Source: an uncultured Acidimicrobiales bacterium (GTDB taxonomy: Bacteria; Actinomycetota; Geothermincolia; Fen-727; Anoxymicrobiaceae). From it: 28,131 nt of DNA. The DNA is taken from NCBI GenBank assembly GCA_964485255.1, contig CAZAIS010000001.1, forward strand, positions 1 to 28,131, read 5' to 3'. Under the pieces are notes generated by a model. It saw only the letters and a program-made list of their open reading frames with translations. It ran no database searches and was not told where the DNA came from. The position numbers and the translations under genes were made by a program. Below are positions 2,752-16,552 of this stretch, piece after piece; the first letter of the stretch is position 1, and each line of letters opens with the position of its first letter.

Positions 2752-4290
2752 TCAACCGCCCCGATCGCGTCGCTTCACCGCCTCGTAGAGCTTCCCGCCG
2801 TCATACAGAAGCATTCCGCCCACGCGTTCGGGCTTGTCCAACTTCGAGATGTCTGACGCGAGCGCTGAATCCCGGCCGATCAATAGAACGTCCGGCCTCG
2901 TCCGGGCAACGTGTCCGAGGACGTCATCGGCGCCCACATCATCTGACAATAGTAGCACACGCTTCCCTTCACCTTCCCATGCGGCGTGTCCCTTGGGCAG
3001 CAGGGACATCTGGCCGGAGCGGTAGCAGTCCAGGTAGAACATCAATTCAGGGCTGTTATCCTTGTCCTGCAGCATGACGGTCGCGAGTGCCCCCTCGTGA
3101 GCGTTGATGTACCCGGCGACCGCCTTCGAGTTCAGCGCGCCTGTATAGAGCGCCTCGGAGCGCATGTAGGACTCGAACCCGAAGGGGACCTGCAGCGCCG
3201 CTGTCGCCGCGACGAGGACGGCGGCGGCGGCTACAGGGACGAGCCTTCCGGCCCTGGCTGACGCCAGCCCCGATATCAGTGCCGCGAACCCCCATCCGCC
3301 GATGAGGGCGAACGCGGGCAGCGAACCGTAGATCATCCAGGGTGGCTTACCGTGGGACAGCGAGAGGACCAGGTAGACGACCACGATCCATACCATGAGA
3401 AACAGCAGCATGGCCAACCCGGAGTAACCGGTCGGGCCCTCTTCCCTGACCCTCGTCCCGGCTGGACGCCACGCCAGAGCGACGGCCGCGGCGAGGACGG
3501 CCAGCAGGACGCCCCAGCCAACGTCCGCCGGAATCCTCGCCAGGTAGAAATAGAAAGGCTCGTGCCAGACCTGCGCCGAGACGTGCGTGCCCAGAAAAAA
3601 CTGCAGGAACTGCCCCTTGGTCCTGGACAACAACAGGAACCACCAGGCGCAAAGAGGAACCGCCACCAGGAAGCTTGCGCCAAGGCCTTTGATCCGGTCG
3701 GTCCTCCGGGTGATAAGCACGAAGATCAGCACCGATACCGGCAGGAAAACCGCTATCTCCTTGGTCAGAAACGCGAGCCCGAGGAACAACCCCGCCCACA
3801 GGTAGCGTTTCCGGAAGAAGAAGAAAAGGAAAAGCATTCCCAGCGCCAGGGTCATCGACTCCTGCTTTATCCAGGTGTCGTATACGCGGGCCGCCGGCAT
3901 CAACGCGAAAAGCATGGCTCCGGTGAGGCCGGCCCATTTGCCGAGCCAGTCCCGCCCGCACATGAATATCATCACGATGAGCAGGAGCGCGAAGACAATC
4001 GATACTATCTCGAGGAATATCGAAAGCCCCACCCGGCCGGAACCCGTGACTCTCGCAAACAACATGCCGAGCCCGGTGTAAGCGGGAGGGTGCCTGAAGA
4101 TATTCGGGTAGAACGTGCTCACGTCATCATGATGGCCGCTTACGGCGTCCTCTATCGAGTTGACGTTCCAGGCCTCGTCCCAGGAAAGAACGTGTCCGAC
4201 GTTCGGCAACCGGAGGCCGAGCGCCAGGACGAGAACCAGCGCGAGCAACAGAGGAACCGCTTTGTCTTTCCGCAATACACCGGTCTTCAA
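2752..4290 (-). CDS. ArnT/PMT-like (GT-C fold) multi-pass glycosyltransferase
   Basis: First-loop SWDEAWN acidic motif, HPPAY motif, GLAFLTKE, many hydrophobic helices, soluble C-terminal domain. Confidence 0.8.
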   Translation of the reverse strand: MKTGVLRKDKAVPLLLALVLVLALGLRLPNVGHVLSWDEAWNVNSIEDAVSGHHDDVSTFYPNIFRHPPAYTGLGMLFARVTGSGRVGLSIFLEIVSIVFALLLIVMIFMCGRDWLGKWAGLTGAMLFALMPAARVYDTWIKQESMTLALGMLFLFFFFRKRYLWAGLFLGLAFLTKEIAVFLPVSVLIFVLITRRTDRIKGLGASFLVAVPLCAWWFLLLSRTKGQFLQFFLGTHVSAQVWHEPFYFYLARIPADVGWGVLLAVLAAAVALAWRPAGTRVREEGPTGYSGLAMLLFLMVWIVVVYLVLSLSHGKPPWMIYGSLPAFALIGGWGFAALISGLASARAGRLVPVAAAAVLVAATAALQVPFGFESYMRSEALYTGALNSKAVAGYINAHEGALATVMLQDKDNSPELMFYLDCYRSGQMSLLPKGHAAWEGEGKRVLLLSDDVGADDVLGHVARTRPDVLLIGRDSALASDISKLDKPERVGGMLLYDGGKLYEAVKRRDRGG

Positions 4291-4475
4291 CTCTTCGTAA
4301 CCCCTGGATCAAGGCGAACAGTCACTCAATCATATTGAATCACTACGCAATAGGACATCCCACCCGCCGAAACCGCATTCGCGAGCGGGATCGAAAACCG
4401 GCCGGGGGGCCTGGAGCAGGCTCCGGGCACCCGTCAGCCCGGCCGGGCCGCCAGCGAAGCCCGCTTCCGCTGTCA

Positions 4476-4481
4476 TATAAT
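4476..4481 (+). promoter_or_regulatory. -10 box of a probable leaderless transcript
   Basis: Perfect TATAAT ending 7 nt before ATG 4488, with no SD in the 6-nt gap (tgccgc). Confidence 0.6.
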
Positions 4482-4487
4482 TGCCGC

Positions 4488-6773
4488 ATGTCGAGCAATA
4501 CTGTCCAATACGCAAACCCGCCACTCGAACGCGAGAGCAGGGACGGCAGGCCTGCCTGGTACAGCCAGGAACTCCCGGTTCTCGCGTTGATCTTCGCCTC
4601 GAGCCTCACTCTCCACGTGATGACCGCGGCAAGAACCGTGACGTTCTCCGACTCCGGCGATTTCCTGATGGCGATATCAACGGTGGGAAACTGCCACGGG
4701 CCTGGTTACCCCCTCTACCTGATGAGCGCGAAGATTTTCTCCTGGATATTCCCGGTCGGCTCCCTGGCGTTCAGGGTGAGCGTGTTCTCCGGGTTGTTCG
4801 CTTCGCTTGCCGCCTGCCTCACGTACTGGATCGTGCTTCGCATGACCAGGAGCCGGGTCGGCGGTGTCGCCGCCGCCCTCGCCCTGTCGTTCTCCTACAC
4901 CTTCTGGTACGAAACCGTCATCCCGGAAACCTACGGACTCAACACGTTCTTCCTGTCCCTGCTCCTCGTCCTCATGCTCCGGTGGGAGAGGCTGCTCAAG
5001 GAAGGCCGGCGCGGGAGCGCGCGCAACACGCTGTCCGCCTTCGCGTTCGTCTTCGGCCTGTCGATGACAAACCATTTCAGCATACTATTCTCGATCCCGG
5101 CGTTTCTCTTCTTCGCGCTGGACACCAACTCGAGAGAAGTCTTCAACGTCCGCAACCTGGTCAGGATGGCCGCGTTTTTCGCGATAGGGCTGCTTCCGTA
5201 CGTCTACGAGCCGGCCGCCGCGTTCCGGGGGCCGGCGTACAACTACGGGGACCCCTCAACGCTCGCACGATGGTTCGATCACGTGACGCTGAACTATCAA
5301 CGCGGCGGTCTTTTCACATACCCGCTGAGGTTCCTGCCGGCCAGGTTCTGGCGCTATTTCGGCACGCTCACCACCGAGTTCCCGTACTTCTTCTGGCTGG
5401 CGGCGGTGGGCCTGGTCGCCTCCTTCCTCAAGAAGAACAAGAAATACGCGCTGTTCGTCAGTCTCCTGTTCGTTTTCACCACCATCACGGTCATGTGTTA
5501 CGACCAGCTCGAATCCGTGCTCAGGGCGCACTTCTACGGGCCCAGCTACTTCGTGGTCACCCTGTGGATCGGTTTCGGCGCCGCCTGGATCGCCAACCTC
5601 GTGAAGCGCTGGTCCAGAGGCCGGGACAGAATTCTGTCAGCAGGTGCCCTGGGAATCACCGGCGCCGTTCTTGTCTTACTGTGCTGCTCTTCGATTCCCG
5701 AGCACTACAACAAGGTCGACAAGAGCAACTACCGCTACGCGCGCGACATGGCGCTGAAGATGCTGTCGAAAGCCGACCGGGAAGGCGTGATCCTGACAGA
5801 TTCGGACAACGTGATCTTTCCACTCAAGTACATGCAGTACGTCGAGGGAGTGAGCCCCGCGGCGGACGTCGTAAACCCCAAGTCGCTGGGCGTGCCGGGC
5901 TGGACCGCCACCGATCTCAACCGAGCCGTTCTGCCACCCGGTGAAGAGCTCAAGCCCGCAGAAGGCGATTACGCGAGGGTGACAAAGCAGAAGTACCATA
6001 GCGTCCCCGTGTTCTCGAGCGGCCTGACCTTCTCGTTCTTCGGATGGAGCCAGGAATGGGAAGGCCTGCTGCTGCGCATCTACCCACCGGGAGCGCAACG
6101 CAAAGCCGCCAGCCCCGTGGTCCTCGCGCAGGGGGGCGAACCGCTGGCCGACCTGGACAGCGACGCCCGCGAGGCAATAGTCCTGTCCGACCTGATGGCT
6201 GTATACAACAAGATACACTCCGGCGAAACGGAAGAGGCCGCGCGCCTCTGCGAAAAGGTCACGCAATACGCCGGCAGAGATCTGTACGTCCCGACGTTGT
6301 ACGGTTGCGAGACCATATCGAATACGTACGACGTATGGGGGCAGCTCCTCAGCCAGCAAGGCAAGTACAAGAAGGTGGTCAGGGAGTTGCCCAAGGCCCG
6401 CCTGTTCAACCCGGACTTCGTGTCCCTGTCGCTCGCCGAGGCCTACATGAGAACCGGAAACGACTCGACGGCGGAGGATGAACTCTCCAAGTTTCTCGTG
6501 ATACACCCGAACAGCGCGGCGGCTTACGAAAAGTTGGGCGAGCTGCAGCTCGTGAGGGGCGATTTCAAGGACGCGGCGTCCTCACTCCGCGAGGCCGTGC
6601 GTCTCGACCCCGGCGTGGCGAAATCCCACTATCAACTCGGCACTGCCTTGCTGCACTTGAACGACAAGAACGGAGCGGTCGAGCAGTTCAACGAAGCGAT
6701 CGCCAGAGGCTCCGGCACTGAATGGGAACAACTGGCCCGTAGCGCCCTCGCGCCTCTCCTCGAGAAGGAATAG
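4488..6773 (+). CDS. DUF2723 / TMEM260-like GT-C membrane glycosyltransferase with C-terminal TPR repeats
   Basis: DSGDF...GNCHGPGYPLY matches the DUF2723 motif. Also ETYGLN, TNHFS, YGDPST, multiple TM helices, and TPR-like helices (AAAYEKLGELQL, AKSHYQLGTALL). Start moved from 4335 to ATG 4488. Confidence 0.82.
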   Translation: MSSNTVQYANPPLERESRDGRPAWYSQELPVLALIFASSLTLHVMTAARTVTFSDSGDFLMAISTVGNCHGPGYPLYLMSAKIFSWIFPVGSLAFRVSVFSGLFASLAACLTYWIVLRMTRSRVGGVAAALALSFSYTFWYETVIPETYGLNTFFLSLLLVLMLRWERLLKEGRRGSARNTLSAFAFVFGLSMTNHFSILFSIPAFLFFALDTNSREVFNVRNLVRMAAFFAIGLLPYVYEPAAAFRGPAYNYGDPSTLARWFDHVTLNYQRGGLFTYPLRFLPARFWRYFGTLTTEFPYFFWLAAVGLVASFLKKNKKYALFVSLLFVFTTITVMCYDQLESVLRAHFYGPSYFVVTLWIGFGAAWIANLVKRWSRGRDRILSAGALGITGAVLVLLCCSSIPEHYNKVDKSNYRYARDMALKMLSKADREGVILTDSDNVIFPLKYMQYVEGVSPAADVVNPKSLGVPGWTATDLNRAVLPPGEELKPAEGDYARVTKQKYHSVPVFSSGLTFSFFGWSQEWEGLLLRIYPPGAQRKAASPVVLAQGGEPLADLDSDAREAIVLSDLMAVYNKIHSGETEEAARLCEKVTQYAGRDLYVPTLYGCETISNTYDVWGQLLSQQGKYKKVVRELPKARLFNPDFVSLSLAEAYMRTGNDSTAEDELSKFLVIHPNSAAAYEKLGELQLVRGDFKDAASSLREAVRLDPGVAKSHYQLGTALLHLNDKNGAVEQFNEAIARGSGTEWEQLARSALAPLLEKE

Positions 6774-6791
6774 CCCAAAGCGCCCGCCTTC

Positions 6792-9029
6792 TCAACGGAC
6801 CAGCTCGATATCGAGGTCGCCGATGAGCACACCCGCCTGAACCTCTGTCGCCCCGGGGATCTCGGGGACCGGCGAGGGCTCGGATTTCGACCGGATAGTC
6901 ATCAGGTTGCTGCCGGGGTTGAGCTTGACCGAGCTGATCTTGAACTCCGTTCTCCATACCGGCAATATATTTCTACCCGTTGCCGCGCCACCAGCCACGA
7001 ACTCGATGGTTCCCTCTTTCTCTGTCGCGGAGGCCTCGATCGTGACGTCGGCGACAACGCTCGTCTGAAGCTCCGATCTTATGTCCACGACCATCTCCTC
7101 CATCCCGGGGTGCCATGCCTTGCCGTCGGCCGAGACGACCGCCTGCGAGCTGCCGGTCATGAAAAGGGGGTAGACTCTCGCCGGCTCGGCAACGACCTCG
7201 TAAATGACACAGTCCTCGAACTCGCTGACTTTCCTGAACCCATCGGGCACCCTGGAGTCCTCGAAGGAAACCGGGTCAACGTAATTGACGTGATTGCCTT
7301 CCAGGTAAAGGCTCGGTATGGCCAGGACGTACTTCACCCCCAACCTCTTCAGGATGCCAGGCGTTGACTCCTCGTAAAGGCTCAAGGCCGTCTGCCTGAT
7401 ATTGTCAGCCTCTGATTCCGGCTCGCCGTTGTTGACGAGTGGCTTCCGGTGGTGACGTTGATCCAGGAGATAGCGGTAGTTGCCGAAGTCGTCGGCGTAG
7501 AAGAACGGGTATACTGCGGCGATTGAACCTTCCTTCGCGTTCCTCAGCCAACGGTAATAGTCCTTAACCGACCCCGTGTCGAGCGAATAGAACGGCGGCA
7601 CTATCGAGTACTCCACCACGATCACGAGGCAGGTCACCGCCACGACGAACAGCCGTGCGCGCTTCCCGCCCGATTTGCGTAGCAGCGCCGCCGCCCCGTA
7701 GGACGCGACGACCGCGACGCAGAACATCACCCCTATGCCGAACCTCGCGTAAGCGCGCACCTCGGGCACCACGAAGTGCAGCAGGTAGCTGGGCATGTAC
7801 AACTTGAGCCCCAGGACGCCAAACGTCGGCGGCATCGAAAACAGGAAGCAGACAGCCGCGGTGAACCCCAGAGAGCACGCCACCCTGAAATCGCCGGACC
7901 ACCCGGCACGTTCCCGCGCCGGTCCGTCTCCACCGTCGTCGACGCACCCCGACCCTCCCTCCGGGCATCGGATCCGGCGGTTCCGCGCGAGTGTGTACGT
8001 ACCGAATGCCGCGAGGCCGAGGGGGACGTAGCCCAGGAAAAGGCTGCTCTCCGACAGGAACCCACCGTGCAGGTGCGACAGAATATATCCCCTTGAGATC
8101 CACCCGAAAGCAGCGGCGTCGGCGTGAGGGAGGATATAGTCCCACGGCCGCGCCGAGTAGAGATACAGTGCCTGCAACCCGCCCGCCGAACCCCTTCGCG
8201 CGAAATAGAAGACGGCTAACCCGATAATACCCGCGGCAATCAACCCCACCGCCACGAGATTGCCGGCGGCGCGGAGCTTGCTCCAGGGTTTCCCGGTAAG
8301 CCACATCACCAGCAGGAACGCGACGGCCATTACCCCACAGATCAGGCCGTAGTGGAAGTTGAACAACGCAGTAAGCGTGAAAGCCCCGACGCAGCACAGC
8401 GCCGGCACGAGGCCCTTCTCGCGCCACCACCTTATCAGGAAATAGAAGAAGAGCGGTATCCATCCTACGGTGAGCAACCCGATATGCTCCTTGCCCTGCA
8501 GGAGCATGTACGGGCATATGCCGAACGCGATGCCGGCGACGGCTGCCGCCCCCCTGCTCTTCGTAAGATATTTGGCCAGGACGAACATGCATACGGCGGC
8601 AAACAAATACGACCCGATAAGGAAGACGTTGTAGGCGACGGTTTCGCCGGTAAGCCTGGTCAGCAGCTTCAGTGTGAGAACAGACAGCGGGTCCCTCGAT
8701 AGAACATTCATGTTCCTGCCAAACGGCACGGCGACCATGGAAACCGGGTTGACCGCGAGGCCCCTGGCCGAAGCGTACCTGGTCCACCAGAGCCACCAAA
8801 TCATCCCCATGGAATCCCCACGCTGCGCGTAGGTACGCGACGTGAGCGTTATCGCGGGATACGTCATGAACGCCACGATAGCGGCGTACAAGGAAAAGAC
8901 CGCCGCACCCCGGCTCAATATAACCCCGCGCAACCGTCGAGGTCTATCTGGCTTCAGCTCATTCACTAAAAGGATCTTCCCACCCCGCCGTTCAACGCTG
9001 ACGCGGGATGAGGCCCCGCTGAAATCCAA
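6792..9029 (-). CDS. Large multi-pass membrane protein, predicted GT-C / YfhO-like glycosyltransferase (paralog A)
   Basis: RGDSMGMIWWLWW loop, many TM helices, soluble C-terminal domains, collinear with 14231-16552. Start uncertain (TTG 9029 or GTG 8966). Confidence 0.65.
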   Translation of the reverse strand: MDFSGASSRVSVERRGGKILLVNELKPDRPRRLRGVILSRGAAVFSLYAAIVAFMTYPAITLTSRTYAQRGDSMGMIWWLWWTRYASARGLAVNPVSMVAVPFGRNMNVLSRDPLSVLTLKLLTRLTGETVAYNVFLIGSYLFAAVCMFVLAKYLTKSRGAAAVAGIAFGICPYMLLQGKEHIGLLTVGWIPLFFYFLIRWWREKGLVPALCCVGAFTLTALFNFHYGLICGVMAVAFLLVMWLTGKPWSKLRAAGNLVAVGLIAAGIIGLAVFYFARRGSAGGLQALYLYSARPWDYILPHADAAAFGWISRGYILSHLHGGFLSESSLFLGYVPLGLAAFGTYTLARNRRIRCPEGGSGCVDDGGDGPARERAGWSGDFRVACSLGFTAAVCFLFSMPPTFGVLGLKLYMPSYLLHFVVPEVRAYARFGIGVMFCVAVVASYGAAALLRKSGGKRARLFVVAVTCLVIVVEYSIVPPFYSLDTGSVKDYYRWLRNAKEGSIAAVYPFFYADDFGNYRYLLDQRHHRKPLVNNGEPESEADNIRQTALSLYEESTPGILKRLGVKYVLAIPSLYLEGNHVNYVDPVSFEDSRVPDGFRKVSEFEDCVIYEVVAEPARVYPLFMTGSSQAVVSADGKAWHPGMEEMVVDIRSELQTSVVADVTIEASATEKEGTIEFVAGGAATGRNILPVWRTEFKISSVKLNPGSNLMTIRSKSEPSPVPEIPGATEVQAGVLIGDLDIELVR

Positions 9030-9046: not shown

Positions 9047-9751
9047 TCATCTGTCGGCTTTGCGGCCGAGCACGCAGAGGCTCACAAAACCGCTTACGGC
9101 CGCTCGGCGGACGTAAGACCTGCGGTAGCTCTCCGAGCCGGGCATCGGCCTGTGCGCAAGATATTTCCACAAATAGAGAGCCATGTAGTCCGCCACCACC
9201 AACCAGCCCCCGCATACCCGTGCTTCCGTGACAACGAAGCCCGCTTCCTCCATCATCGCGCTCACGTCGCGCAAACGGTAGTGCCTGTGTCCCGCGATCA
9301 GCCACGCCGGGTCCATGATGCAGGAGCGGACGTTCTTGCTCGGCGTTCCCAAGGCCAGGCAGCCTCCAGGTCTCGTGACCCTCGAAATCTCCCTCAGGGC
9401 GCGCGCCTCCGAGTCGACGGGCAGGTGCTCGAGCACGTCGAAAAACGTCACCACGTCGAATATCGCCTCCTCGAAAGGAAGGTCGAGGACGGAGCCTTCG
9501 ACGAAGGATGCCCGGGGTACTTTCCCGCGAGCGACCTCCAGGGCCCGCGGTTCTATGTCCAACCCCGTTACGCTGCGCGCGCGCGAAGCTGCCAGGGAAG
9601 CGAAGTCGCCGGTCCAGCACCCGACATCCAGCAAGTCGGCAGAGTTCACCACGTCGCCCACGAAGGCGGCCTTGGCCTCCTGCCGGTAGGCCTCTTTGCC
9701 GCCATCGGCGATCTCGTCGAATCTCATCTTCTTCGGTTCACGCGTTTTCAT
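9047..9751 (-). CDS. Class I SAM-dependent methyltransferase
   Basis: LLDVGCWTG motif I, GLDI, FDVVTFFDVLEHL, RVTRPGG. ATG overlaps the upstream TGA (TGATG). Confidence 0.9.
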   Translation of the reverse strand: MKTREPKKMRFDEIADGGKEAYRQEAKAAFVGDVVNSADLLDVGCWTGDFASLAASRARSVTGLDIEPRALEVARGKVPRASFVEGSVLDLPFEEAIFDVVTFFDVLEHLPVDSEARALREISRVTRPGGCLALGTPSKNVRSCIMDPAWLIAGHRHYRLRDVSAMMEEAGFVVTEARVCGGWLVVADYMALYLWKYLAHRPMPGSESYRRSYVRRAAVSGFVSLCVLGRKADR

Positions 9752-10581
9752 CAGCCGACCCCCGGGTGCCCTTTTTGAAAAACGAGGGCCATGTGGTGCG
9801 CGTACTTCTTCAAGGGACTCCTCAACAGCAGCCGATCGAGCGACGTCAACAGCGGAGACAGGAGATTGTAGAAACGCATTCCCTTAGGTGGGAACGAAGG
9901 GACCATGTCGGTGACTCCTTCACGCACGAGCGCGAGGCCGTGTCTCGCTGCGTCCTTTTCGACCTGCCGCTCCGACAAGACCAGCTCGTGGACGGGAAGG
10001 CCCAGCCTCGCCGCCAGTCTCTCCAGGTAAGCCCCCTGTCTGGGAGTCCTGAAGACAAAGAACCAGCCGCCGTCCCGCGTTACGCGTGATATCTCCGCGA
10101 GGAGCTCGCCCAGCCAATCCGGGTTCACGTGCTCGATGACCGCGTGCGCCACCACCGCATCGAACGCGCCGTCGCCGAACGGCAGGCTCCTGCCGTCGAA
10201 GCCGGTCAGGCTTATCCCGAACACCTTTCGTATCTCTTCCCAGCTCTCCGTCAGCAAGGTCGGGCGCTCCCTCTCCGCGCCGCAAGACCCCCACTCCGCC
10301 CCGTACGCCCGCTCCCTCCCGCAACCGCCGCCCGCGTCGATGTCCACGCCGCGCACATCGTGGCCATACCCCTTGAGCAATACCGCCATCAGGCCCATGC
10401 CGCATCCGACGTCGAGCACCCGGGCCGCGCCGGGCAGCCTGGCATCGGCAATCCGCGCGCACTCCCACATCCCGTTCACGTATACGTCGGACCGCCAGTC
10501 CATCCAGGCGTCCCCCAGGTCCAGTCCCTCCATGGTCCTGCGATACTCCCGTATGAGTTCCGAATAAGCGGTCTTGTCCAT
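9751..10581 (-). CDS. Class I SAM-dependent methyltransferase
   Basis: VLDVGCGMG, GVDI, FDAVVAHAVIEHV, RVTRDGG. Start moved from 10794 to ATG 10581 (MDKTAY, preceded by GGAG). Confidence 0.88.
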   Translation of the reverse strand: MDKTAYSELIREYRRTMEGLDLGDAWMDWRSDVYVNGMWECARIADARLPGAARVLDVGCGMGLMAVLLKGYGHDVRGVDIDAGGGCGRERAYGAEWGSCGAERERPTLLTESWEEIRKVFGISLTGFDGRSLPFGDGAFDAVVAHAVIEHVNPDWLGELLAEISRVTRDGGWFFVFRTPRQGAYLERLAARLGLPVHELVLSERQVEKDAARHGLALVREGVTDMVPSFPPKGMRFYNLLSPLLTSLDRLLLRSPLKKYAHHMALVFQKGHPGVG

Positions 10582-10787
10582 CTCCAGCCTCGCTCTCGCG
10601 CGGCTCCGTCGAAAGGCGAACCGCTCCCTACCGGCACCGTAGCACCGGACGTCGCCTGACCTGTTGAAAACCGCGGTCATTAAACTGTTAGCCGCGAGTC
10701 GCGCTCGAACCTTGCGCGGCCCTGCCCCCGCGGCGCAACCGCGACCCGCGGCCGCGGGTGAACGGCGTGGACGGCTTCCTGTATCAT

Positions 10788-12383
10788 ATGGCAAGAGCCA
10801 CCTGCGCTACCGGCTTGGAGTGGAACATTCGAATACAACTGATAAACCCCACGGTCACGATCTCGAAGGCCGATTACTACCAGGGCATAAGCTTCATGCC
10901 TCCGCTGGGCCTGGCGTACCTAGCGTCCGTCCTGTGCGAGGCCGGTCACGAGGTTTCTATCATCGACCGGTTAGGGGCACACCCGATGCCCGTGGAGCGA
11001 ACGGGCGACCTCTTGAGGTGTGGGATAGACGAGAGCACGGTGCTTGAGCGAATGGAGAGCTTCGCCCCCGAGCTCATAGGCATTACCTGCCCGTACACGG
11101 CAAACGCGCGCGACGCTGTCGATACGGCAAGACTTGTGAAAAGAGCGTCGCCCGGGATTCCCGTCCTTATGGGAGGGGCGCACGCTTCCGTGTGCCCGGA
11201 GGAGCTGCTCGCTGAAGAAAGCGTGGATTATGTCATCGCTGGAGAAGGCGAGGACGTAACGAAGTCCCTGGTCGCCGCCCTCGAATCGGGGGCCGAAACG
11301 TCCGCCATCGACGGACTGATGCGCATGAATGCCGACGGCGTTATATCGGGCAGCCCCGCCCACGAGCGGATCAAGGATCTGGATTCGATCCCGTTTCCCC
11401 GCAGGGACCTGCTACCCATGGAGCAGTACTTCAAGGCCCAGCAATCAGGACTCGAGAGAATAAACAACATCAGGTGGCCCAAGACTACGATGATCACATC
11501 GCGCGGATGCCCCGAGAACTGCGTGTTCTGCGCGATAAGATGCACGTGGGGCAGAAAATGGAAGGGCCGCTCTCCCGGGAACGTCGTAAACGAGATAGAG
11601 GGTCTCGTCAGGGATTTCGGCGTGAGGGAGATAGACTTCCTCGATGACAGCCTCTCTGTTTCCAGGAGCCGGCTCGAGGCGATATGCAACCTCATTATCG
11701 AGCGCGAGATAGACATCAAGTGGACTACGCCGAACGGGATCGCGATATGGTCGCTGGACGAGGATCTGCTGAAGCTGATGAAAAGGTCCGGCTGCTACCG
11801 CCTGACTTTCGGCCTGGAGTCAGGGGACAGCGACACCATTGACTTCATCCGGAAGCGCTACACTCGCGATTACGCTCAAAAGCTCATCGGATACGCGAAC
11901 CGGATCGGTCTGTGGACCATCGGCACATTCATACTCGGTTTTCCCTACGAGACGAGAGCGCAGATGGAACACACGATCCGCTTCGCGATCGATTCCGGCC
12001 TGGACCTCGCGGTGTTCTACTGCGCGGCCGCATTCCCCGGAACGGACCTTTACAAAGTGTGCGCGAGCGAGGGAATAGAGGTACCGAGGTCGGCTTCCCT
12101 GATGCTCAGCGCAATCGACTCGACCACCATGACCGCCGAGCAAATAGCCCGCGTACGCGAGGACGCCAACGGCAGGTTCGCCCGGAACCTGAGGCGACGG
12201 CCCTGGAAAGTCCTGGAGAAGATCAAGAACGTCGAGGACTGCCGGTACGCCGCCCGCGTCAGCCGCTACGCCCTCCGCCTCTCGCGGAGGTCCGCCGCCA
12301 CGCGCAGCACGACCGCGTTCCTGTATTCCGGCGATGGGGGACGGCGGGGACGCCGTTCTCGACAGCAGCGTCGGAGGGGTTGA
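10788..12383 (+). CDS. B12-binding domain radical SAM protein (class B methyltransferase-like)
   Basis: PPLGLAYLAS, MGGAHAS and GEGE in the cobalamin domain; TSRGCPENCVFC (CxxxCxxC); FGLESG; FILGFPYET. Start uncertain (ATG 10788 or slightly downstream). Confidence 0.9.
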   Translation: MARATCATGLEWNIRIQLINPTVTISKADYYQGISFMPPLGLAYLASVLCEAGHEVSIIDRLGAHPMPVERTGDLLRCGIDESTVLERMESFAPELIGITCPYTANARDAVDTARLVKRASPGIPVLMGGAHASVCPEELLAEESVDYVIAGEGEDVTKSLVAALESGAETSAIDGLMRMNADGVISGSPAHERIKDLDSIPFPRRDLLPMEQYFKAQQSGLERINNIRWPKTTMITSRGCPENCVFCAIRCTWGRKWKGRSPGNVVNEIEGLVRDFGVREIDFLDDSLSVSRSRLEAICNLIIEREIDIKWTTPNGIAIWSLDEDLLKLMKRSGCYRLTFGLESGDSDTIDFIRKRYTRDYAQKLIGYANRIGLWTIGTFILGFPYETRAQMEHTIRFAIDSGLDLAVFYCAAAFPGTDLYKVCASEGIEVPRSASLMLSAIDSTTMTAEQIARVREDANGRFARNLRRRPWKVLEKIKNVEDCRYAARVSRYALRLSRRSAATRSTTAFLYSGDGGRRGRRSRQQRRRG

Positions 12384-12434
12384 GGAAACCGGCCACGCGA
12401 TCGGGGATGGAAGGAGCGCGCCGGGAGCGGCGCG

Positions 12435-13148
12435 TCACCTGCGGGCCTTTACCGCTATGAACGCCGAGTGTCGGGGGTCCAGTTCACTCAACAGCTCCGC
12501 TATCCGGCCGCCGAGGGGAAAATAACCGTAACCCTTCAGAACTTCGACCTTGAAACCGTGGGCCTCGAGCAGGTCCACCAGGCCCCTGGGCGCGAAGATC
12601 CGCCTGTGCTGTAGCGGCAGGGCATTGCCGGCCTCCCCCCGGTGCAGTGCAAGGGGGTTGCCGAGCCCCGCGACCTTGCCGCTGATATTGCCGAGCGAGA
12701 ACGGCTGCCAGCCCATCGCTATCGCCGCCACGTTGTACCAGGCCGATATGTTCTCGGTGGATATCGCGAAAACTCCCCCGGGCTTCAGCAACCTGTACGC
12801 CTCGGCCACGAGATTGTCCGTATCATACAGGTGCTCTATGACCTGGTTCGCGATCGCGCAGTCGGCCCTTCCTTCCGGCAGGTCGATCGGCCGGTTCAGA
12901 TCGGAGACGGTCACCTTCACCCCGATGGCGCCGGCGGCGTTCGCGGCCTCCTGTTCGATCTCTATGCCGATTGCCTCAGCCGCGTGAATCGCGCCCGCCA
13001 CCCGCATGGTGTAGACGCCGTCGGCGCAGCCGAAATCCAGCAGCGTCCCGGCGCCGCTCCCCGCCAGGAACTCGATGAGCCCCAGGCGGTTGCGGTCCTG
13101 CGCTTCGATCCAGGTCCTGTGCATGTACTCCCGCAACCCTTCTCTCAC
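12435..13148 (-). CDS. Class I SAM-dependent methyltransferase
   Basis: LLDFGCADG, GIEI, ANQVIEHL, RLLKPGG. GTG start with GGAGG RBS. Confidence 0.9.
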   Translation of the reverse strand: MREGLREYMHRTWIEAQDRNRLGLIEFLAGSGAGTLLDFGCADGVYTMRVAGAIHAAEAIGIEIEQEAANAAGAIGVKVTVSDLNRPIDLPEGRADCAIANQVIEHLYDTDNLVAEAYRLLKPGGVFAISTENISAWYNVAAIAMGWQPFSLGNISGKVAGLGNPLALHRGEAGNALPLQHRRIFAPRGLVDLLEAHGFKVEVLKGYGYFPLGGRIAELLSELDPRHSAFIAVKARR

Positions 13149-13178
13149 GGCAAGTCCTCCATTCCGCCGCGCCGCACT

Positions 13179-14228
13179 TCACTGACTCCAGTTATCCCGC
13201 TCCTGCTCGCGCGGCCTGATTCGGGCTTCCACCACTCCCCAGGCGTACACAACCAGCGTAACAAGGCACGCCGGAACGTGCAGAATCCATGCTATGTCCG
13301 GCCTCCTTGTGTATCCTCTGACCGCCTGCGCGACGAGAGGGACCACCAGGAGGCAGTACGCGATGAACTTCAGGATGCCGCGGGTGCGCCCGCGGTTCGG
13401 GGCGCTCTCCCTCATTCCGCGCGCGCTGTAGTAGCTGAAATCCCGCACCCTCCTGAGTTGCTTTCGCCCGAAGACGCGCAAGCCCGTCCCGTAGAGGTGC
13501 ACTATCCCGGTCTTCACCTTCGCGAAGCGGTCGTAACCCAACGCCACCAGCCCGCTGACTACATCGACGTCGAAGAGATACTCCCCTACGTCCAGAAGCT
13601 CGAGGAGTCCCCGCCGGACCATGAAACCGTTCGCGCCCATCGTTGGAATACGGCCTGTCTGGAGCTTGACCTCCAGGTAATCGCCCCGGTCGCGCTCGTC
13701 CACCTTCAGCCCCGTCCACTTCCCCGAAAGCGCGCTCACGCGGTCGTAGCTGCCCATGAAGTAGACCAGAGGGTCGTTCATTCCCAGCAACGCGCAATAC
13801 CTCGTCAGCATGGGATCGTCCCGCCGGTACGTATACTCCAGCGGCTCCGACGCGGCGATCCCGGGGTCCGCGAAAGGCGCCGTCATGCGTCTCATCCACG
13901 ATCCGTCGGGCAGGATGTTGTCGCTGTCGATCAGGGCTACGACGTCCCGGGTGGCGGCTTTCAGCCCTGCCGCTTTTCCCGCCTCGCCGGTCTTCTTTTC
14001 GTTTTCGACGACCAGGCAGCCGTACTCTTCGGCGATCCGCAACGTCCCGTCCGTCGAGCCCCCATCCGCCACTATTATCTCGAGCGGCCCGTCGAATTCC
14101 TGCAGCCTGATGCTCTCCAGGCACGAGGATAGAACGCTCTGCGCGTTGAGAGTCGGGATTATTACGCTCACCCCGACGGGTTCAACGCCCCGGGACGAGT
14201 CTCGCTTTTTCTCCACCTCACCCGTCAT
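13179..14228 (-). CDS. GT2 family glycosyltransferase with C-terminal membrane helices
   Basis: SVIIPTLN, IIVADGGSTDGT, IDSD (DxD), GANGF, two hydrophobic C-terminal segments. Confidence 0.9.
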   Translation of the reverse strand: MTGEVEKKRDSSRGVEPVGVSVIIPTLNAQSVLSSCLESIRLQEFDGPLEIIVADGGSTDGTLRIAEEYGCLVVENEKKTGEAGKAAGLKAATRDVVALIDSDNILPDGSWMRRMTAPFADPGIAASEPLEYTYRRDDPMLTRYCALLGMNDPLVYFMGSYDRVSALSGKWTGLKVDERDRGDYLEVKLQTGRIPTMGANGFMVRRGLLELLDVGEYLFDVDVVSGLVALGYDRFAKVKTGIVHLYGTGLRVFGRKQLRRVRDFSYYSARGMRESAPNRGRTRGILKFIAYCLLVVPLVAQAVRGYTRRPDIAWILHVPACLVTLVVYAWGVVEARIRPREQERDNWSQ

Positions 14229-14230
14229 TG

Positions 14231-16552
14231 CTACCGCTCCACAATCTCGACGTTGTCTATCTGCAGCAACGCGTTTCTCATCGCGAATATCGCGAGCTCG
14301 TTGTTGCTCAACCGTGTAGCGGGGCCGCTCTTGGTGATATTCAGCTCCAGCCCGCCGGACGGCACCCTGAGGTTGCCGATCTCCACCATGGCCTCCTGGC
14401 CTTGATCCATGAGGCCGGTTGCCAGCTCTTCCCCGCTTTTCGCGCTTATCGTGACCTTGCCCCTGGAGTATGGATTCCTCAACGGTACCTTCAGTGTAAT
14501 CACTCGGTCTTCACCCGTGTAATTCTCAAGCCTGATCGTTCCCAGGCCGTCGAGCACGCGCATGGTTTCTCCTTCCCTGGCCATTATCGGCACGGATATG
14601 TTCCCAAGGTACAGGGGCAGGATGTCGGCCGGTCTTCCCTTGACCTCGTAGATGCGCGCCTGTCCGAACGGACCGTCCTCGTTGAACCTGGCGACTTCCC
14701 GGAAGCCCTCCGGAAGCCGTGACGGGTCCAGCGGCCAGCCCGCGTTCTCCTCGATCTCTCCGACGAAAACCACCGCGTGGGTCATGCCTAGCCTCTTGAG
14801 GTACGAGGGCGTCGCCGGGTCGTAAGGGTTGTAGACTGTTCGACGGGCAGCCTCACCATCGGAGTTCGCGGTCGCTCCGTTGAGCATCGGCTTCTTGAAG
14901 ACCCGCTGGTAGAACAAGAGCTGGCTGGCTAAAAACGGACCGTTCTCGTGGATCGGGTAGAACACGAGCACGGGGTCCCCCTTCATCTTATCTACCGCGG
15001 AGAAGACGCCAGGCGTATCGCTGAAGTCGAAATTCTTGAAAGGCGGAACGGGCACCATCTCTACCAGCAGAAGCGCGACGAAAAGGGTGACAACGATTAT
15101 CGAGCGGGGGCGGAAGCGGTGCGCGAGGAGGACCAGGCCGGCAGCCGCGATCACGATCAAGCAGAGCCCTACGACGACCGACCACCTGTTGTACCAGCGA
15201 AACCAGGGCGCGATCAGCGTCATGATCCTGGACGGGAGCGGGATTTCGGCCGACCCGATGGAAAAGCCCGGCTTGAGCGAAAATACGAAAGCCGAAAGGC
15301 CCGCCGCCGCGAAACCCCACATGGCCGGCGCGGCGCCGCCGCCTCCATGAGGGGCCCGGTGTTCATCCCGCGCCTCGCGAAGCTTTCTTTTCCTGCTCCG
15401 CCATTTAGAGAGAGTCAGTACCAGGCAGATGGTGGCGAGCAGGAAAACCGTCCAACCGATGTATACCGAATCGACGTAAAGAGCCTGGGTCACCTTGTGA
15501 AGCCTCCTCTGCAGCGGAGCCAGCAGAGAGTTCTTGAAGTTCGGCCTCAGGTATTGTGCCGGAGACGCGGACGCGCCGTACAAGTATTCGTCTATGCGAA
15601 GTTCGGCCGGCGTGGGGCTGGTAGGCCACCTGCCGGGAGGATTGTAGTCACTCGCGTACAGGACGAAGAACGGCAGTACCGCGATCACGAAGACGAGCAG
15701 GGCGCAAAGAGACAGCAGGGCGGTCCTCCTGTTCACCGAAAGGTGATCCCGGATCGAACGGCGCAGGCCGCCCCCCGAAGCGTCCCTCACCACGAGGTAG
15801 ACCCATCGACCGATCAGGAAGGCCGGTGTGAACACTCCCATGAAAAGCCCGAAATGCAGTGAGGTGTTGGCCACCAGTATCGCGCTCAGGGAGACGCCTA
15901 ACGCCGTCTTCCATCCGGGCTTCTCGATGAAAAGGATCAGGCAGAGGATGTAGAGAGGCATCCACTGCGTTGCGGCCAGCCCCGAGCCTATAAACATAGA
16001 ATAGTTGACGTGGAACGCGGACAGCATGAACGCTATTCCCGCGAAAAACGCTACCCGCCGGTCGTGCAGCAGATGTCGCACCAGGTAATACATCGTAACG
16101 CCCGAGAGCGCGTATCCCAGGAGCACGTCTATGTTCCATGCAACCACCTCGTTGGTGAACAGGAGGAGGAACCTCCACTCCAGGTACCCGAGAGGTTGCA
16201 CCGGAAACCCGAGCGAGCTTCCGAAGGGAGCGCCGATCAGTGGACAGAACGTCACGCTTCCGCCGTATGCGCCGGCATTCTTGTACCACCAGTTCAACCA
16301 TATCGTCCCGAGGTTGTCTCCCGGGACACCGTATATGGAACTGCTGAAGCGCGTTATGAGAGGCCAGGTCAGATAGAGTGTGAACAAAACGTAAAAAAGG
16401 ATTATCCAGAACTCGGGCCTTACGCGGGATATGCTCGCCGCCATACGACCGGCCACACCGGAGAAAGGCCTCCGGGCGCCAGCGACGGAGGCAGCCTCAG
16501 CGGCGCCGTCCGCGGCCGTGTCTTTTGCTCCAGTGTCATTCATCGCCAGCAA
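14231..16552 (-). CDS. Large multi-pass membrane protein, predicted GT-C / YfhO-like glycosyltransferase (paralog B)
   Basis: PGDNLGTIWLNWW loop, many TM helices, collinear with 6792-9029. Start TTG 16552 or ATG 16543. Confidence 0.65.
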   Translation of the reverse strand: MLAMNDTGAKDTAADGAAEAASVAGARRPFSGVAGRMAASISRVRPEFWIILFYVLFTLYLTWPLITRFSSSIYGVPGDNLGTIWLNWWYKNAGAYGGSVTFCPLIGAPFGSSLGFPVQPLGYLEWRFLLLFTNEVVAWNIDVLLGYALSGVTMYYLVRHLLHDRRVAFFAGIAFMLSAFHVNYSMFIGSGLAATQWMPLYILCLILFIEKPGWKTALGVSLSAILVANTSLHFGLFMGVFTPAFLIGRWVYLVVRDASGGGLRRSIRDHLSVNRRTALLSLCALLVFVIAVLPFFVLYASDYNPPGRWPTSPTPAELRIDEYLYGASASPAQYLRPNFKNSLLAPLQRRLHKVTQALYVDSVYIGWTVFLLATICLVLTLSKWRSRKRKLREARDEHRAPHGGGGAAPAMWGFAAAGLSAFVFSLKPGFSIGSAEIPLPSRIMTLIAPWFRWYNRWSVVVGLCLIVIAAAGLVLLAHRFRPRSIIVVTLFVALLLVEMVPVPPFKNFDFSDTPGVFSAVDKMKGDPVLVFYPIHENGPFLASQLLFYQRVFKKPMLNGATANSDGEAARRTVYNPYDPATPSYLKRLGMTHAVVFVGEIEENAGWPLDPSRLPEGFREVARFNEDGPFGQARIYEVKGRPADILPLYLGNISVPIMAREGETMRVLDGLGTIRLENYTGEDRVITLKVPLRNPYSRGKVTISAKSGEELATGLMDQGQEAMVEIGNLRVPSGGLELNITKSGPATRLSNNELAIFAMRNALLQIDNVEIVER

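What the first reader, a model, noticed from the sequence alone, without database searches (positions are those of the whole stretch)
2752..16552. pilA-linked 14-kb island of four GT-C-type enzymes, a GT2 and four methylating enzymes: candidate new pilin glyco-methylation system
Seen: nine genes sit exactly between pilA and pilD (ArnT-like, DUF2723+TPR, two paralogous large membrane proteins, GT2, three SAM methyltransferases, B12 radical SAM). There is no recognisable flippase, Wzy/Wzz or nucleotide-sugar enzyme. Established: Pseudomonas places tfpO or the GT-C tfpW immediately after pilA to glycosylate pilin, which blocks pilus-specific phages; GT-C enzymes use polyprenol-phosphate sugars. 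Inference: sugars are added stepwise outside the membrane from lipid-monosaccharide donors, then O- and possibly C-methylated.
Basis: partly seen in the sequence, partly recalled or inferred. Interest (0 to 1): 0.85.

Follow-up and report, generated by a model that had tools for sequence, protein, structure and literature searches.

The report
Glycosylation island inside a pilus operon
An uncultured actinobacterium carries nine sugar-transfer and sugar-tailoring genes wedged between its type IV pilin gene and the pilin-processing peptidase gene. They most likely decorate the pilus with modified sugars, a new version of a known trick, but this is predicted from sequence only.

Summary
Nine genes (2752-16552) lie between pilA and pilD in a pilB-pilT-pilC-pilA…pilD-pilM operon of an uncultured Geothermincolia/Anoxymicrobiaceae-like actinobacterium.

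- **Gene content.** There are four GT-C enzymes: PMT_2, TMEM260-like+TPR, and two paralogs of an unnamed family. The paralog beside pilA gives a confident model that matches AglB, STT3, DPY19 and Emb. The other five genes are a membrane-anchored GT2, three soluble SAM methyltransferases and a B12/radical-SAM enzyme.
- **For a pilin target.** In 10 of 11 close relatives, the first gene after the last pilin gene is a GT-C. The minimal forms are pilA-GT-C-PMT_2-pilD and pilA-TMEM260/TPR-pilD. The gene content varies between relatives. Three more distant contigs (two of them identical) carry a Wzy_C+TPR gene in the same slot, the family of the known pilin O-oligosaccharyltransferases.
- **Against a pilin target.** The GT-C family is very large and mostly unlinked to pili. 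Near-identical cassettes lie between efp and pepQ or after aroQ in relatives.
- **Correction.** The methyltransferases and the radical-SAM enzyme are cytoplasmic, so tailoring must happen before the sugar is flipped across the membrane, not after transfer. The radical-SAM enzyme need not be a methylase.

Verdict: probably a pilin O-glycosylation island (about 0.55), a new variant of a known kind.

The parts
55..1116 (-). pilM (T4P assembly ATPase-like protein)
   Evidence: PilM_2 9.9e-47. 81-91% identical in relatives L004 and L168.
1191..1361 (-). 56-aa HTH_17 DNA-binding protein between pilD and pilM
   Evidence: ORF found. The same small HTH_17 gene is called in L004 and L168. The best sigma70-like site of the region (11/12) is at 1479-1450.
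1629..2675 (-). pilD prepilin peptidase (true start probably near 2573)
   Evidence: A24_N_bact 1.4e-31 and Peptidase_A24 2e-10.
2752..4290 (-). G1: GT-C glycosyltransferase, PMT_2/ArnT-like, 512 aa
   Evidence: PMT_2 41.6 bits, above the gathering score of 26.1. D38-E39 in loop 1 ('SWDEAW') is invariant in 25 homologs. The ortholog (52% identity) lies directly before pilD in L004.
4335..6773 (+). G2: GT-C, TMEM260-like/DUF2723 with C-terminal TPR domain (probable start about 4488)
   Evidence: TMEM260-like 3.5e-30 plus TPR families. The 'TFSDSGDF' loop-1 motif is invariant in the orthologs. The ortholog in L097 is the only gene between pilA and pilD.
6792..9029 (-). G3: GT-C of the G3/G9 family (DUF6541/DUF6311-like), 745 aa
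   Evidence: Paralog of G9, E=4e-52. Its L008 ortholog passes the Pfam DUF6541 threshold. The 41%-identical homolog in L087 is called DUF6311.
9047..9751 (-). G4: soluble class-I SAM methyltransferase
   Evidence: Methyltransf_11 9.6e-23. No transmembrane segment.
9751..10794 (-). G5: soluble class-I SAM methyltransferase (probable start about 10581)
   Evidence: Methyltransf_11 2.2e-15. No transmembrane segment.
10758..12383 (+). G6: B12-binding radical SAM enzyme (class B), chemistry undetermined
   Evidence: B12-binding 2.3e-24 and Radical_SAM 1e-20. The CPENCVFC cluster motif is visible in the translation. The best NCBIfam hit scores 220 bits against a cut-off of 575. The best solved relative is AprD4.
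12435..13148 (-). G7: soluble class-I SAM methyltransferase, conserved partner of G8
   Evidence: Methyltransf_23 1.1e-16. The G8->G7 adjacency recurs at 50-67% identity in L016/L087, L015, L168/L169 and L170; L019 has a 30%-identical MT in the same position.
13179..14228 (-). G8: membrane-anchored GT2 with two C-terminal transmembrane helices
   Evidence: Glycos_transf_2 1.2e-21. Transmembrane helices at 285-303 and 315-333. The model has pLDDT 92, and its fold matches PcManGT, BcsA, ArnC and DPMS.
14231..16552 (-). G9: GT-C with an OST-like architecture (transmembrane module, alpha/beta domain and CBM-like beta-sandwich), directly downstream of pilA
   Evidence: AF2 model with pLDDT 87. Foldseek hits are AglB, STT3, DPY19, Emb, PglB and AftA. 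D79 in loop 1 is invariant. Orthologs follow pilA in L001/7, L004, L008, L009, L012, L026, L094 and the P0004 locus.
16697..17122 (-). pilA major pilin (leader cleaved at G|FTLIELM; mature protein 116 aa)
   Evidence: N_methyl 9.3e-8. The mature sequence is 19% Ser+Thr, has three Cys and no N-x-S/T sequon.
17167..21310 (-). pilC (17167-18390), pilT (18515-19591), pilB (19619-21310)
   Evidence: T2SSF 1.1e-61; T2SSE 3.4e-49 and 6.2e-136.

Best explanation
This is a variable protein-glycosylation island occupying the 'accessory slot' between the major pilin gene and the prepilin peptidase gene of a type IVa-like pilus operon. The host is an uncultured monoderm actinobacterium of the class Geothermincolia.

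Proposed mechanism:
1. **Shown:** gene content, protein folds, membrane topology and synteny.
2. **Inferred:** at the cytoplasmic face, the membrane-anchored GT2 (G8) puts a sugar on, or extends a sugar on, a polyprenyl-phosphate carrier.
3. **Inferred:** the soluble SAM methyltransferases (G7, the conserved partner of G8, plus G4 and G5) and the B12/radical-SAM enzyme (G6) tailor the sugar while it is still cytoplasmic. The chemistry could be O-methylation and a radical C-methylation or deoxygenation.
4. **Inferred:** the lipid-linked sugar(s) are flipped by an enzyme not encoded in the island.
5. **Inferred:** outside the membrane, the GT-C enzymes use these lipid-linked donors. One of them initiates O-glycosylation of Ser/Thr on the pilin, either before or during assembly. 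The best candidates are G9, which sits beside pilA and has an oligosaccharyltransferase-like architecture, and the TPR-bearing TMEM260-like G2. The other GT-Cs (G1, G3) extend or branch the glycan.
6. **Inferred:** the rapid turnover of gene content between relatives suggests diversifying selection on a surface-exposed glycan, for example from pilus-binding phages.
For: **Operon structure**
- pilA-G9 (144-bp gap) and G1-pilD (76-bp gap) are each co-directional.
- In L004 the whole interval is pilA-G9-G1-pilD on one strand.

**Slot occupancy**
- In 10 of 11 close-clade loci where sequence after pilA is visible, the first gene after the last pilin gene is a GT-C.
- Eight are G9-type, one is PMT_2 (L091) and one is TMEM260+TPR (L097).
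- More distant operons of the same type go straight from pilA to pilD: 10 loci.
- In three contigs (L117/L118, which are identical, and L120), Wzy_C+TPR sits between pilA and pilD. This is the domain family of TfpO and PglL.

**Enzyme families**
- G9 has a GT-C fold closest to the protein-modifying OSTs and DPY19.
- TMEM260 is a protein-specific O-mannosyltransferase (PMC10214176).
- The loop-1 acidic residues are invariant in G1, G2 and the G3/G9 family.

**Content turnover**
- Methylation/radical-SAM genes here; aminosugar genes at the P0004 locus; GT4 plus a methyltransferase in L009 and L012; a 2xGT2 fusion in L008.

**Precedent**
- tfpO and the GT-C+TPR gene tfpW lie directly 3' of pilA in Pseudomonas (bioRxiv 10.1101/2020.04.19.049825).

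**Cytoplasmic tailoring**
- G4, G5, G6 and G7 have no transmembrane segments.
- G8 has the two C-terminal helices and the GT2 fold of ArnC, DPMS and PcManGT.
Against: - No glycopeptide or mass data exist, and the organism is uncultured.
- The G3/G9 family is very large: 11,854 representatives at E<=1e-3. Outside one clade it is never beside pilins.
- Sister lineages carry G9-like, 2xGT2, radical-SAM, methyltransferase and G8-G7 cassettes between efp and pepQ.
- The L004 genome has both a pil-linked copy and a pepQ-linked copy of the G9 type.
- In the closest relative seen (L168, PilM 91% identical), the G8-G7 pair sits after aroQ rather than inside the slot.
- The pil-linked G9 copies are only weakly monophyletic: 12 of 50 NJ bootstraps.
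- G1 homologs at about 40% identity sit in unrelated housekeeping contexts.
- The pilin is only moderately rich in Ser/Thr (19%) and has no obvious glycosylation tail.
- Four GT-Cs and nine genes are more than simple pilin decoration needs.
Confidence: 0.55

Rival explanations
1. This is a general cell-envelope glycan island. The genes would build or decorate a wall or surface glycoconjugate with methylated sugars, such as a secondary cell-wall polymer, a lipoglycan or an S-layer glycoprotein. The glycan would be assembled outside the membrane by GT-C enzymes, in the manner of Emb/Aft. On this view the pilA-pilD position is just a permissive insertion site within a conserved pil-aro-pepQ-efp neighbourhood.
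For: - Homologous cassettes lie between efp and pepQ with no pil gene found within the up to 10 kb fetched on each side (L010, L011, L013-L016, L019, L087).
- G8 is at least 50% identical across phyla, and even in Methanosarcinaceae.
- The G3/G9 family is widespread in Omnitrophota, Planctomycetota and Chloroflexota. There it often sits next to methyltransferase, radical-SAM or GT2 genes and never next to pilins.
- The Foldseek hits include EmbA/B and AftA.
- G1 gives an NCBIfam hit to a 'cell surface glycopolymer formation protein'.
- Four GT-Cs fit stepwise polymer assembly.
Against: - It does not explain why unrelated glycosyltransferase families each occupy exactly the pilA-pilD slot in different lineages. 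Three of the four (Wzy_C+TPR, TMEM260+TPR, PMT_2) have characterised protein-modifying members; the fourth is the OST-like G9 type.
- It does not explain why the minimal loci keep only GT-Cs there (L004, L097).
- pilD, which is essential for piliation, is left downstream of the island and co-directional with G1.
Confidence: 0.27
2. This is a broad-spectrum protein O-glycosylation system. The GT-Cs would glycosylate many secreted or membrane proteins, the pilin being just one client. The parallels are Neisseria PglL, actinobacterial Pmt and streptococcal GtrB/PgtC2.
For: - PMT_2 and TMEM260-like enzymes are protein O-glycosyltransferase families.
- GtrB plus a GT-C glycosylates Ser/Thr-rich regions of many streptococcal membrane proteins (PMC12041528).
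- G1 paralogs occur elsewhere in the same genomes, for example L085 and L008.
Against: - Tight and recurrent placement next to pilA suggests a dedicated client.
- The TPR domain of G2 suggests selective substrate recruitment, as in TMEM260.
- No proteome-level evidence is available either way.
Confidence: 0.13
3. The large membrane proteins are not transferases. Instead they would be structural or assembly factors of the pilus machine in a thick-walled monoderm, and the tailoring genes would be unrelated passengers.
For: There is no biochemical evidence of activity. G9 and G1 are the conserved core beside pilA and pilD.
Against: - The loop-1 Asp/Glu positions typical of catalytic GT-C residues are invariant.
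- G9 has a complete GT-C fold with a carbohydrate-binding-module-like domain.
- These genes co-occur with GT2, methyltransferase and sugar-modifying genes in every variant island.
Confidence: 0.03

Closest known systems
Pseudomonas aeruginosa group IV pilin glycosylation (tfpW, with the D-Araf genes)
   Same: - A GT-C enzyme is encoded immediately 3' of pilA.
- It uses polyprenyl-phosphate monosaccharide donors outside the membrane.
- It O-glycosylates several pilin Ser/Thr residues.
- TfpW pairs a GT-C module with a C-terminal TPR domain, as G2 does here and as the sole slot gene does in L097.
   Different: - G9, the gene next to pilA here, ends in an alpha/beta domain plus a beta-sandwich, not TPRs. 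Its loop-1 motif is PGDN, not DDX.
- There are no DprE1/DprE2 or other D-Araf genes.
- The island carries four GT-Cs plus methylation and radical-SAM tailoring.
- The host is a monoderm actinobacterium.
- Sequence homology to TfpW could not be tested, because no TfpW sequence was available to these tools.
TfpO/PilO and PglL pilin O-oligosaccharyltransferases (Wzy_C family)
   Same: - The genomic logic matches: tfpO lies directly after pilA.
- The enzyme borrows a lipid-linked glycan made by a general pathway. This resembles the L004 genome, where the pil slot holds only GT-Cs and the sugar genes lie elsewhere.
- A Wzy_C+TPR gene occupies the same pilA-pilD slot in L117/L118 and L120.
   Different: No Wzy_C domain is found anywhere in this window. 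The candidate transferases are GT-C enzymes, which normally use polyprenyl-monophosphate sugars rather than Und-PP-oligosaccharides.
Three-component extracytoplasmic glycosylation systems (GtrA/GtrB/GtrC; CsbB/GtcA/YfhO; streptococcal GtrB/PgtC2)
   Same: A GT2 with C-terminal membrane helices (G8) is paired with GT-C transferases acting outside the membrane. The ortholog of the L008 pilD-adjacent GT-C in L168 gives a weak YfhO hit (PMC11127046 and PMC12041528).
   Different: - No GtrA-like flippase is encoded.
- G8's fold is as close to the PcManGT/cellulose-synthase-like class as to ArnC or DPMS, so its product is unresolved.
- Cytoplasmic methyltransferases and a radical-SAM enzyme are added.
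STT3/AglB/PglB oligosaccharyltransferases
   Same: These are the best structural matches to the G9 model (E 7e-8 to 1e-6). They share the overall architecture of a 13-helix GT-C module followed by a C-terminal globular domain with a beta-sandwich.
   Different: - TM-scores are only 0.37-0.5.
- The family profile finds no PDB sequence at E<=1.
- G9 has no WWDYG motif.
- The pilin has no N-x-S/T sequon.
- G9 is not a member of this family.
TMEM260 / DUF2723 protein-specific O-mannosyltransferase
   Same: G2 matches the family model at 3.5e-30 and shares the GT-C plus luminal TPR layout. It also has a conserved Asp in loop 1.
   Different: Only the human enzyme has been characterised, and no bacterial member has a known substrate. 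G2 is encoded on the opposite strand, 10 kb from pilA.

Membership tests
GT-C glycosyltransferase superfamily (G9, and G3 by paralogy) | Multi-helix membrane module with the GT-C fold | tested here: met
   AF2 model with pLDDT 87 and pTM 0.87. The top 19 Foldseek PDB hits are all GT-C enzymes at probability 0.98-1.0. G3 and G9 match at E=4e-52. The L008 G3 ortholog passes the Pfam DUF6541 threshold.
GT-C glycosyltransferase superfamily (G1, G2, G3, G9) | Conserved acidic residue in the first extracytoplasmic loop | tested here: met
   D79 is invariant in 37 G9/G3 sequences. D38-E39 is invariant in 25 G1 homologs. D106 and D109 are invariant in three G2 orthologs.
GT-C glycosyltransferase superfamily | Uses a polyprenyl-phosphate-linked sugar donor | not testable with these tools
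   This needs biochemistry.
STT3/AglB/PglB oligosaccharyltransferases (G9) | WWDYG motif and detectable sequence homology | tested here: not met
   There is no WWD motif in the G9 translation. The family profile finds nothing in PDB sequences at E<=1. NCBIfam and Pfam give no hit.
TfpW-type pilin glycosyltransferase | GT-C gene immediately 3' of the major pilin gene | tested here: met
   G9 starts 144 bp after pilA on the same strand. This is conserved in eight related loci.
TfpW-type pilin glycosylation system (defined from tfpW plus its D-Araf genes) | C-terminal TPR domain, DDX motif in loop 1, and linked D-Araf (DprE1/E2) genes | tested here: not met
   G9 ends in a beta-sandwich and has PGDN in loop 1. 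G2 has TPRs but is not adjacent to pilA. No DprE-like gene appears in the Pfam scans.
TfpW-type pilin glycosyltransferase | Sequence homology to TfpW | not tested
   No TfpW sequence was reachable with the tools.
TfpO/PglL O-oligosaccharyltransferases | Wzy_C (O-antigen ligase) domain | tested here: not met
   No Wzy_C hit was found in any scanned window protein. The domain is present only in the equivalent slot of L117 and L120.
Three-component GtrA/GtrB/GtrC-like system | GT2 with a C-terminal membrane anchor, plus a GT-C transferase | tested here: met
   G8 has transmembrane helices at 285-303 and 315-333. Its fold hits include ArnC and DPMS. Four GT-Cs are present.
Three-component GtrA/GtrB/GtrC-like system | Small GtrA-family flippase | tested here: not met
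   There is no such ORF and no free coding space in 2752-16552.
TMEM260-like/DUF2723 (G2) | Match to the family model above threshold, with C-terminal TPRs | tested here: met
   105.5 bits against a gathering score of 24.2; TPR_2 at 5.2e-14.
GT39 protein O-mannosyltransferase proper (G1) | PMT domain with MIR motifs in the large outer loop | tested here: not met
   Only the PMT_2 model (ArnT/PMT-like) and a weak GT87 hit were found, with no PMT or MIR hit. G1 is a PMT_2-class GT-C, not a canonical GT39 Pmt.
Class B (cobalamin) radical SAM methylase (G6) | B12-binding domain, radical SAM domain and CxxxCxxC motif | tested here: met
   Both domains are found. CPENCVFC is visible in the translation.
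Class B (cobalamin) radical SAM methylase (G6) | Methyl transfer, as opposed to other radical chemistry | tested here: inconclusive
   The best NCBIfam hit (Sden_1168 P-methyltransferase) scores 220 bits against a cut-off of 575. The best solved relative is the dehydratase AprD4, followed by TsrM and TokK.

The most novel reading that the evidence does not exclude
The G9-type protein would found a third, previously unrecognised class of dedicated pilin glycosyltransferase. It is an OST-like GT-C from a large unnamed family (DUF6541/DUF6311-like, about 12,000 cluster representatives). It would stand beside the Wzy_C type (TfpO/PglL) and the TfpW type. On this reading it attaches to type IV pilins of monoderm Actinomycetota a glycan that has been O-methylated and radical-SAM-modified while still on its lipid carrier. 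The pilA-pilD slot would then be a hypervariable 'pilus serotype' locus.
Probability: 0.35. Interest if true: 0.7.

Novelty: new variant of a known kind. Interest (0 to 1): 0.55.

Why it matters
Pilin-linked glycosylation genes are well known in Pseudomonas and Neisseria, where they change pilus antigenicity and block pilus-specific phages. If the inference holds, three things follow.

- **Reach of the strategy.** It would extend this strategy to deep-branching, uncultured, monoderm Actinomycetota.
- **A testable client for unnamed enzymes.** It would give a first testable protein substrate to a very large uncharacterised GT-C family and to bacterial TMEM260/DUF2723 homologs.
- **A compact study system.** It would offer a small system for studying how cytoplasmic methyl and radical-SAM tailoring is combined with extracytoplasmic GT-C transfer.

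The comparative result stands even without biochemistry and is useful for annotation. The pilA-pilD slot is filled in different lineages by Wzy_C+TPR, TMEM260+TPR, PMT_2 or OST-like GT-C genes.

Tried and rejected
- **Sequence annotation of G3 and G9.** Pfam and NCBIfam gave nothing. A family profile against PDB sequences also gave nothing. Only structure prediction resolved them.
- **N-glycosylation by an OST-like G9.** Rejected. G9 has no WWDYG motif, and the window pilin has no N-x-S/T sequon.
- **Horizontally acquired island detectable by composition.** No G+C or skew anomaly was seen.
- **Clean split between pil-linked and efp/pepQ-linked G9 copies.** The NJ tree gives only weak support (12 of 50 bootstraps), and the L086 group nests beside the pil-linked copies. 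Orthology cannot separate the functions.
- **G1 as a universally pilD-linked gene.** Rejected. Homologs at about 40% identity lie in unrelated contexts.
- **G8 as a clear polyprenyl-phosphate sugar synthase.** The fold search does not discriminate ArnC/DPMS from the PcManGT, BcsA and HAS class.
- **Terminator and promoter scan.** Terminator-like sites are not above chance (15 found against 13.7 expected). Only two promoter-like sites are worth noting.
- **Literature search on Geothermincolia pili.** The query was badly posed (min_terms 1), so it returned only generic pilus papers and says nothing about the literature either way.
- **Genomic context beyond the 10-kb flanks.** The remaining sequence of the L008 contig, and of the efp-linked loci, could not be fetched, so their distance to pil genes is unknown.

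Full report
**1. What is in the window**

The 28-kb window appears to be a whole contig (the 'longest contig' for its proteins is 28131). It comes from an uncultured Actinomycetota genome. The nearest named relatives are 'Candidatus Geothermincolia' and 'Candidatus Anoxymicrobiaceae' MAGs.

On the minus strand it carries a type IV pilus operon:
- pilB, 19619-21310
- pilT, 18515-19591
- pilC, 17167-18390
- pilA, 16697-17122
- the nine island genes
- pilD, 1629-2675
- a 56-aa HTH_17 gene, 1191-1361
- pilM, 55-1116

Upstream of pilB lie aroE, an MglA-like GTPase, a PATAN/DUF4388 protein and two Roadblock proteins.

- G1: PMT_2-class GT-C.
- G2: TMEM260-like/DUF2723 plus TPR, on the + strand.
- G3 and G9: 745 and 773 aa, with no Pfam or NCBIfam hit. 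They are 27% identical over 645 aa, E=4e-52.
- G4, G5, G7: class-I SAM methyltransferases.
- G6: B12-binding radical SAM enzyme, on the + strand.
- G8: GT2.

No Wzy_C, Wzx, GtrA-like or nucleotide-sugar gene is present, and there is no room for one. Base composition is unremarkable.

**2. The unannotated membrane proteins are GT-C enzymes**

- I aligned 37 homologs and obtained an AlphaFold2 model of G9 with mean pLDDT 87 and pTM 0.87.
- Foldseek against the PDB returned only GT-C enzymes in the top 19 hits. These were AglB, human and yeast STT3, the C-mannosyltransferase DPY19, EmbA/B, PglB and AftA, at E from 7e-8 to 3e-4 and probability 0.98-1.0.
- The C-terminal beta-sandwich matched carbohydrate-binding modules.
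- An Asp (D79) at the start of the first outer-loop helix is invariant across the family, G3 included.
- The L008 ortholog of G3 passes the Pfam DUF6541 threshold and gives weak PMT_2 and PTPS_related hits. Another homolog is called DUF6311 and another YfhO (weak).
- G9 is not an STT3-family member. A profile search of PDB sequences finds nothing, and there is no WWDYG motif.
- The family is very large: 11,854 50%-identity cluster representatives at E<=1e-3, and 6,271 at E<=1e-10.
- G1 keeps an invariant D38-E39 in loop 1. G2 keeps 'TFSDSGDF'.

All four GT-Cs therefore look catalytically competent.

**3. The cytoplasmic enzymes**

- G8 has a GT-A domain followed by two C-terminal transmembrane helices.
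- Its model (pLDDT 92) best matches the archaeal membrane mannosyltransferase PcManGT. The next matches are BcsA, ArnC, hyaluronan synthases and DPMS.
- It is therefore a membrane-bound GT2 acting on a lipid or lipid-linked acceptor at the cytoplasmic face. Whether it makes a polyprenyl-phosphate monosaccharide or extends a lipid-linked glycan is unresolved.
- G8 is unusually conserved. It is at least 50% identical in several phyla and in Methanosarcinaceae, with 2,460 hits at E<=1e-10.
- In several islands G8 is immediately followed by a G7-type methyltransferase. This suggests that G7 methylates the product of G8.
- G4, G5, G6 and G7 have no transmembrane segment, and all need SAM.
- Tailoring must therefore precede flipping.
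- G6 has the CxxxCxxC motif and a B12 domain. Even so, all NCBIfam hits are far below cut-off. Its closest solved relative is the diol-dehydratase AprD4, ahead of the methylases TsrM and TokK. 'C-methylation' is only one option.

**4. Is the island tied to the pilus?**

*G9-centred view.* G9 homologs were followed into 76 genome loci plus several metagenome contigs.
- Homologs at 37-50% identity lie directly after pilA in the same synteny of PATAN-MglA-aroE-pilBTC-pilA. These are L001/7, L004, L008, L009, L012, L026, L094 and the P0004 locus.
- Other homologs at 36-41% identity instead lie next to efp. They are followed by a 2xGT2 fusion, one to three B12/radical-SAM genes, methyltransferases, a GT4 and a G8-G7 pair. 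Where it can be seen, the island ends at pepQ (L014, L019, L016+L087).
- Homologs at 30% identity or less, in other phyla, never have pilins nearby.
- The L004 genome has both arrangements. It carries pilA-G9-G1-pilD, and about 10-25 kb away a pepQ-linked island with epimerases, GT2, GT4, two methyltransferases, a G8-like gene and a second G9-type gene.
- In L168, the closest relative by PilM (91% identical), the G8-G7 pair sits just after aroQ.
- An NJ tree groups the pil-linked copies only loosely: 12 of 50 bootstraps.

*Pilus-centred view.* Eighty metagenome loci were retrieved with PilC.
- In more distant operons of the same type, pilA is followed directly by pilD (10 loci).
- In three contigs (L117/L118, which are identical, and L120), pilA is followed by a Wzy_C+TPR protein. 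This is the domain family of the characterised pilin O-oligosaccharyltransferases TfpO and PglL.
- Within the window's clade, the slot holds a TMEM260+TPR gene alone (L097), a PMT_2 GT-C (L091), G9+G1 (L004), G9+G9' (L012/L094), or larger mixed sets. The P0004 locus carries aminosugar genes. L008 carries a 2xGT2 fusion and three GT-Cs.
- Only L095, where the operon is broken after pilA, has nothing.
- So 10 of 11 informative close-clade loci have a GT-C as the first gene after the pilin gene(s).

*Assessment.* Four different families occupy the same slot in different lineages: three with characterised protein-modifying members, plus the OST-like G9 type. This is the strongest argument that the pilin is the client. 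It mirrors the tfpO/tfpW alternation after pilA in Pseudomonas. The counter-argument is that the same enzymes and cassettes also function away from pilA. At least part of the chemistry is therefore shared with another, unknown acceptor.

**5. The pilin**

- The mature pilin is 116 aa, with the usual hydrophobic N-terminus and three Cys.
- It is 19% Ser+Thr overall. These residues are concentrated in the variable C-terminal third, '…CPASSATNSGNTYTLVGAGGSNPPTVSCPGSVSGHSI'.
- It has no N-x-S/T sequon. If it is modified, O-linkage is expected.

**6. Most likely mechanism**

The numbered steps, with shown and inferred parts marked, are given under Best explanation. In brief:
- A membrane GT2 and cytoplasmic tailoring enzymes prepare lipid-linked, partly methylated sugar donor(s).
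- An unlinked flippase exports them.
- The GT-Cs then transfer them to pilin Ser/Thr and extend the glycan.

The L004 arrangement suggests a TfpO-like logic. In that logic, slot-encoded transferases borrow donors made by a neighbouring general island. In the window, both parts have been merged into the slot.

My estimates:
- About 0.9 that this is an extracytoplasmic GT-C glycosylation island.
- About 0.55 that it is dedicated to the pilin.
- About 0.13 more that the pilin is one client among several.

**7. Comparison and novelty**

The closest known systems are:
- P. aeruginosa tfpW (a GT-C plus TPR after pilA)
- TfpO/PglL
- the three-component GtrB/GT-C systems
- TMEM260

The differences are set out in Closest known systems and Membership tests. 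In short:
- a different GT-C family sits next to pilA;
- there are four GT-Cs;
- there is no flippase and no D-Araf pathway;
- methylation and radical-SAM tailoring are added;
- the host is a monoderm.

This makes it a new variant of a known kind, predicted but untested. Interest is moderate at 0.55. A specialist would not be astonished by pilin glycosylation genes next to pilA. However, the slot's family-swapping, the new OST-like GT-C family and the radical-SAM tailoring are good leads.

Noticed in passing
window 22857-26474 (-): The PATAN/DUF4388 gene (421 aa, 25209-26474) and the acidic 644-aa ORF (22857-24791) are in the same reading frame. A single TAG at 25209-25211 separates them. Relatives encode one protein of 1100-1258 aa here. 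This could be a nonsense mutation, a sequencing error or a genuinely split gene.
   Followed up: partly
window 22297-22839, 25209-26474, 26490-26948, 27180-27611 (all -): An MglA-like small GTPase, a PATAN-domain protein and two Roadblock/LC7 (MglB-like) proteins are conserved just upstream of aroE-pilB in all close relatives. This looks like a Myxococcus-style polarity/motility switch beside a T4P operon in an actinobacterium.
   Followed up: no
window 1191-1361 (-), promoter-like site 1479-1450: A 56-aa HTH_17 DNA-binding gene lies between pilD and pilM. It is conserved in L004 and L168. It is preceded by the best sigma70-like match in the region (11 of 12), so it may be a dedicated regulator or the start of a separate pilMNO transcription unit.
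   Followed up: partly
window 12435-14228 (-); L168 10001-11721; L087 10001-11759; L170 5499-7301: The GT2 G8 is very highly conserved: at least 50% identical across several bacterial phyla and in Methanosarcinaceae. It forms a mobile gene pair with the methyltransferase G7. The pair is found inside the pilA-pilD slot, just after aroQ, or beside pepQ, depending on the genome.
   Followed up: partly
L117 11905-14581; L120 11960-14609: In more distant operons of the same type, the pilA-pilD slot holds a Wzy_C+TPR protein followed by a small TPR protein. These are candidate PglL/TfpO-like pilin O-oligosaccharyltransferases, in organisms that were not identified.
   Followed up: partly
L086 14447-21032; L087 1-4885: Beyond pepQ, next to the non-pil glycan islands, lie large proteins with no Pfam hit. 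Their N-termini resemble TadE/TadG or pseudopilin leaders, for example 'ERGTSVVEMLTAVILL'. This hints at a second pilus-like gene set adjoining the glycan genes.
   Followed up: no
L012 4570-6713: The second tandem G9-type gene after pilA is split into ORFs of 485 and 166 aa. This may be a frameshift or a pseudogene. The equivalent region in L094 (a G9-type tblastn match) was not examined at ORF level.
   Followed up: no
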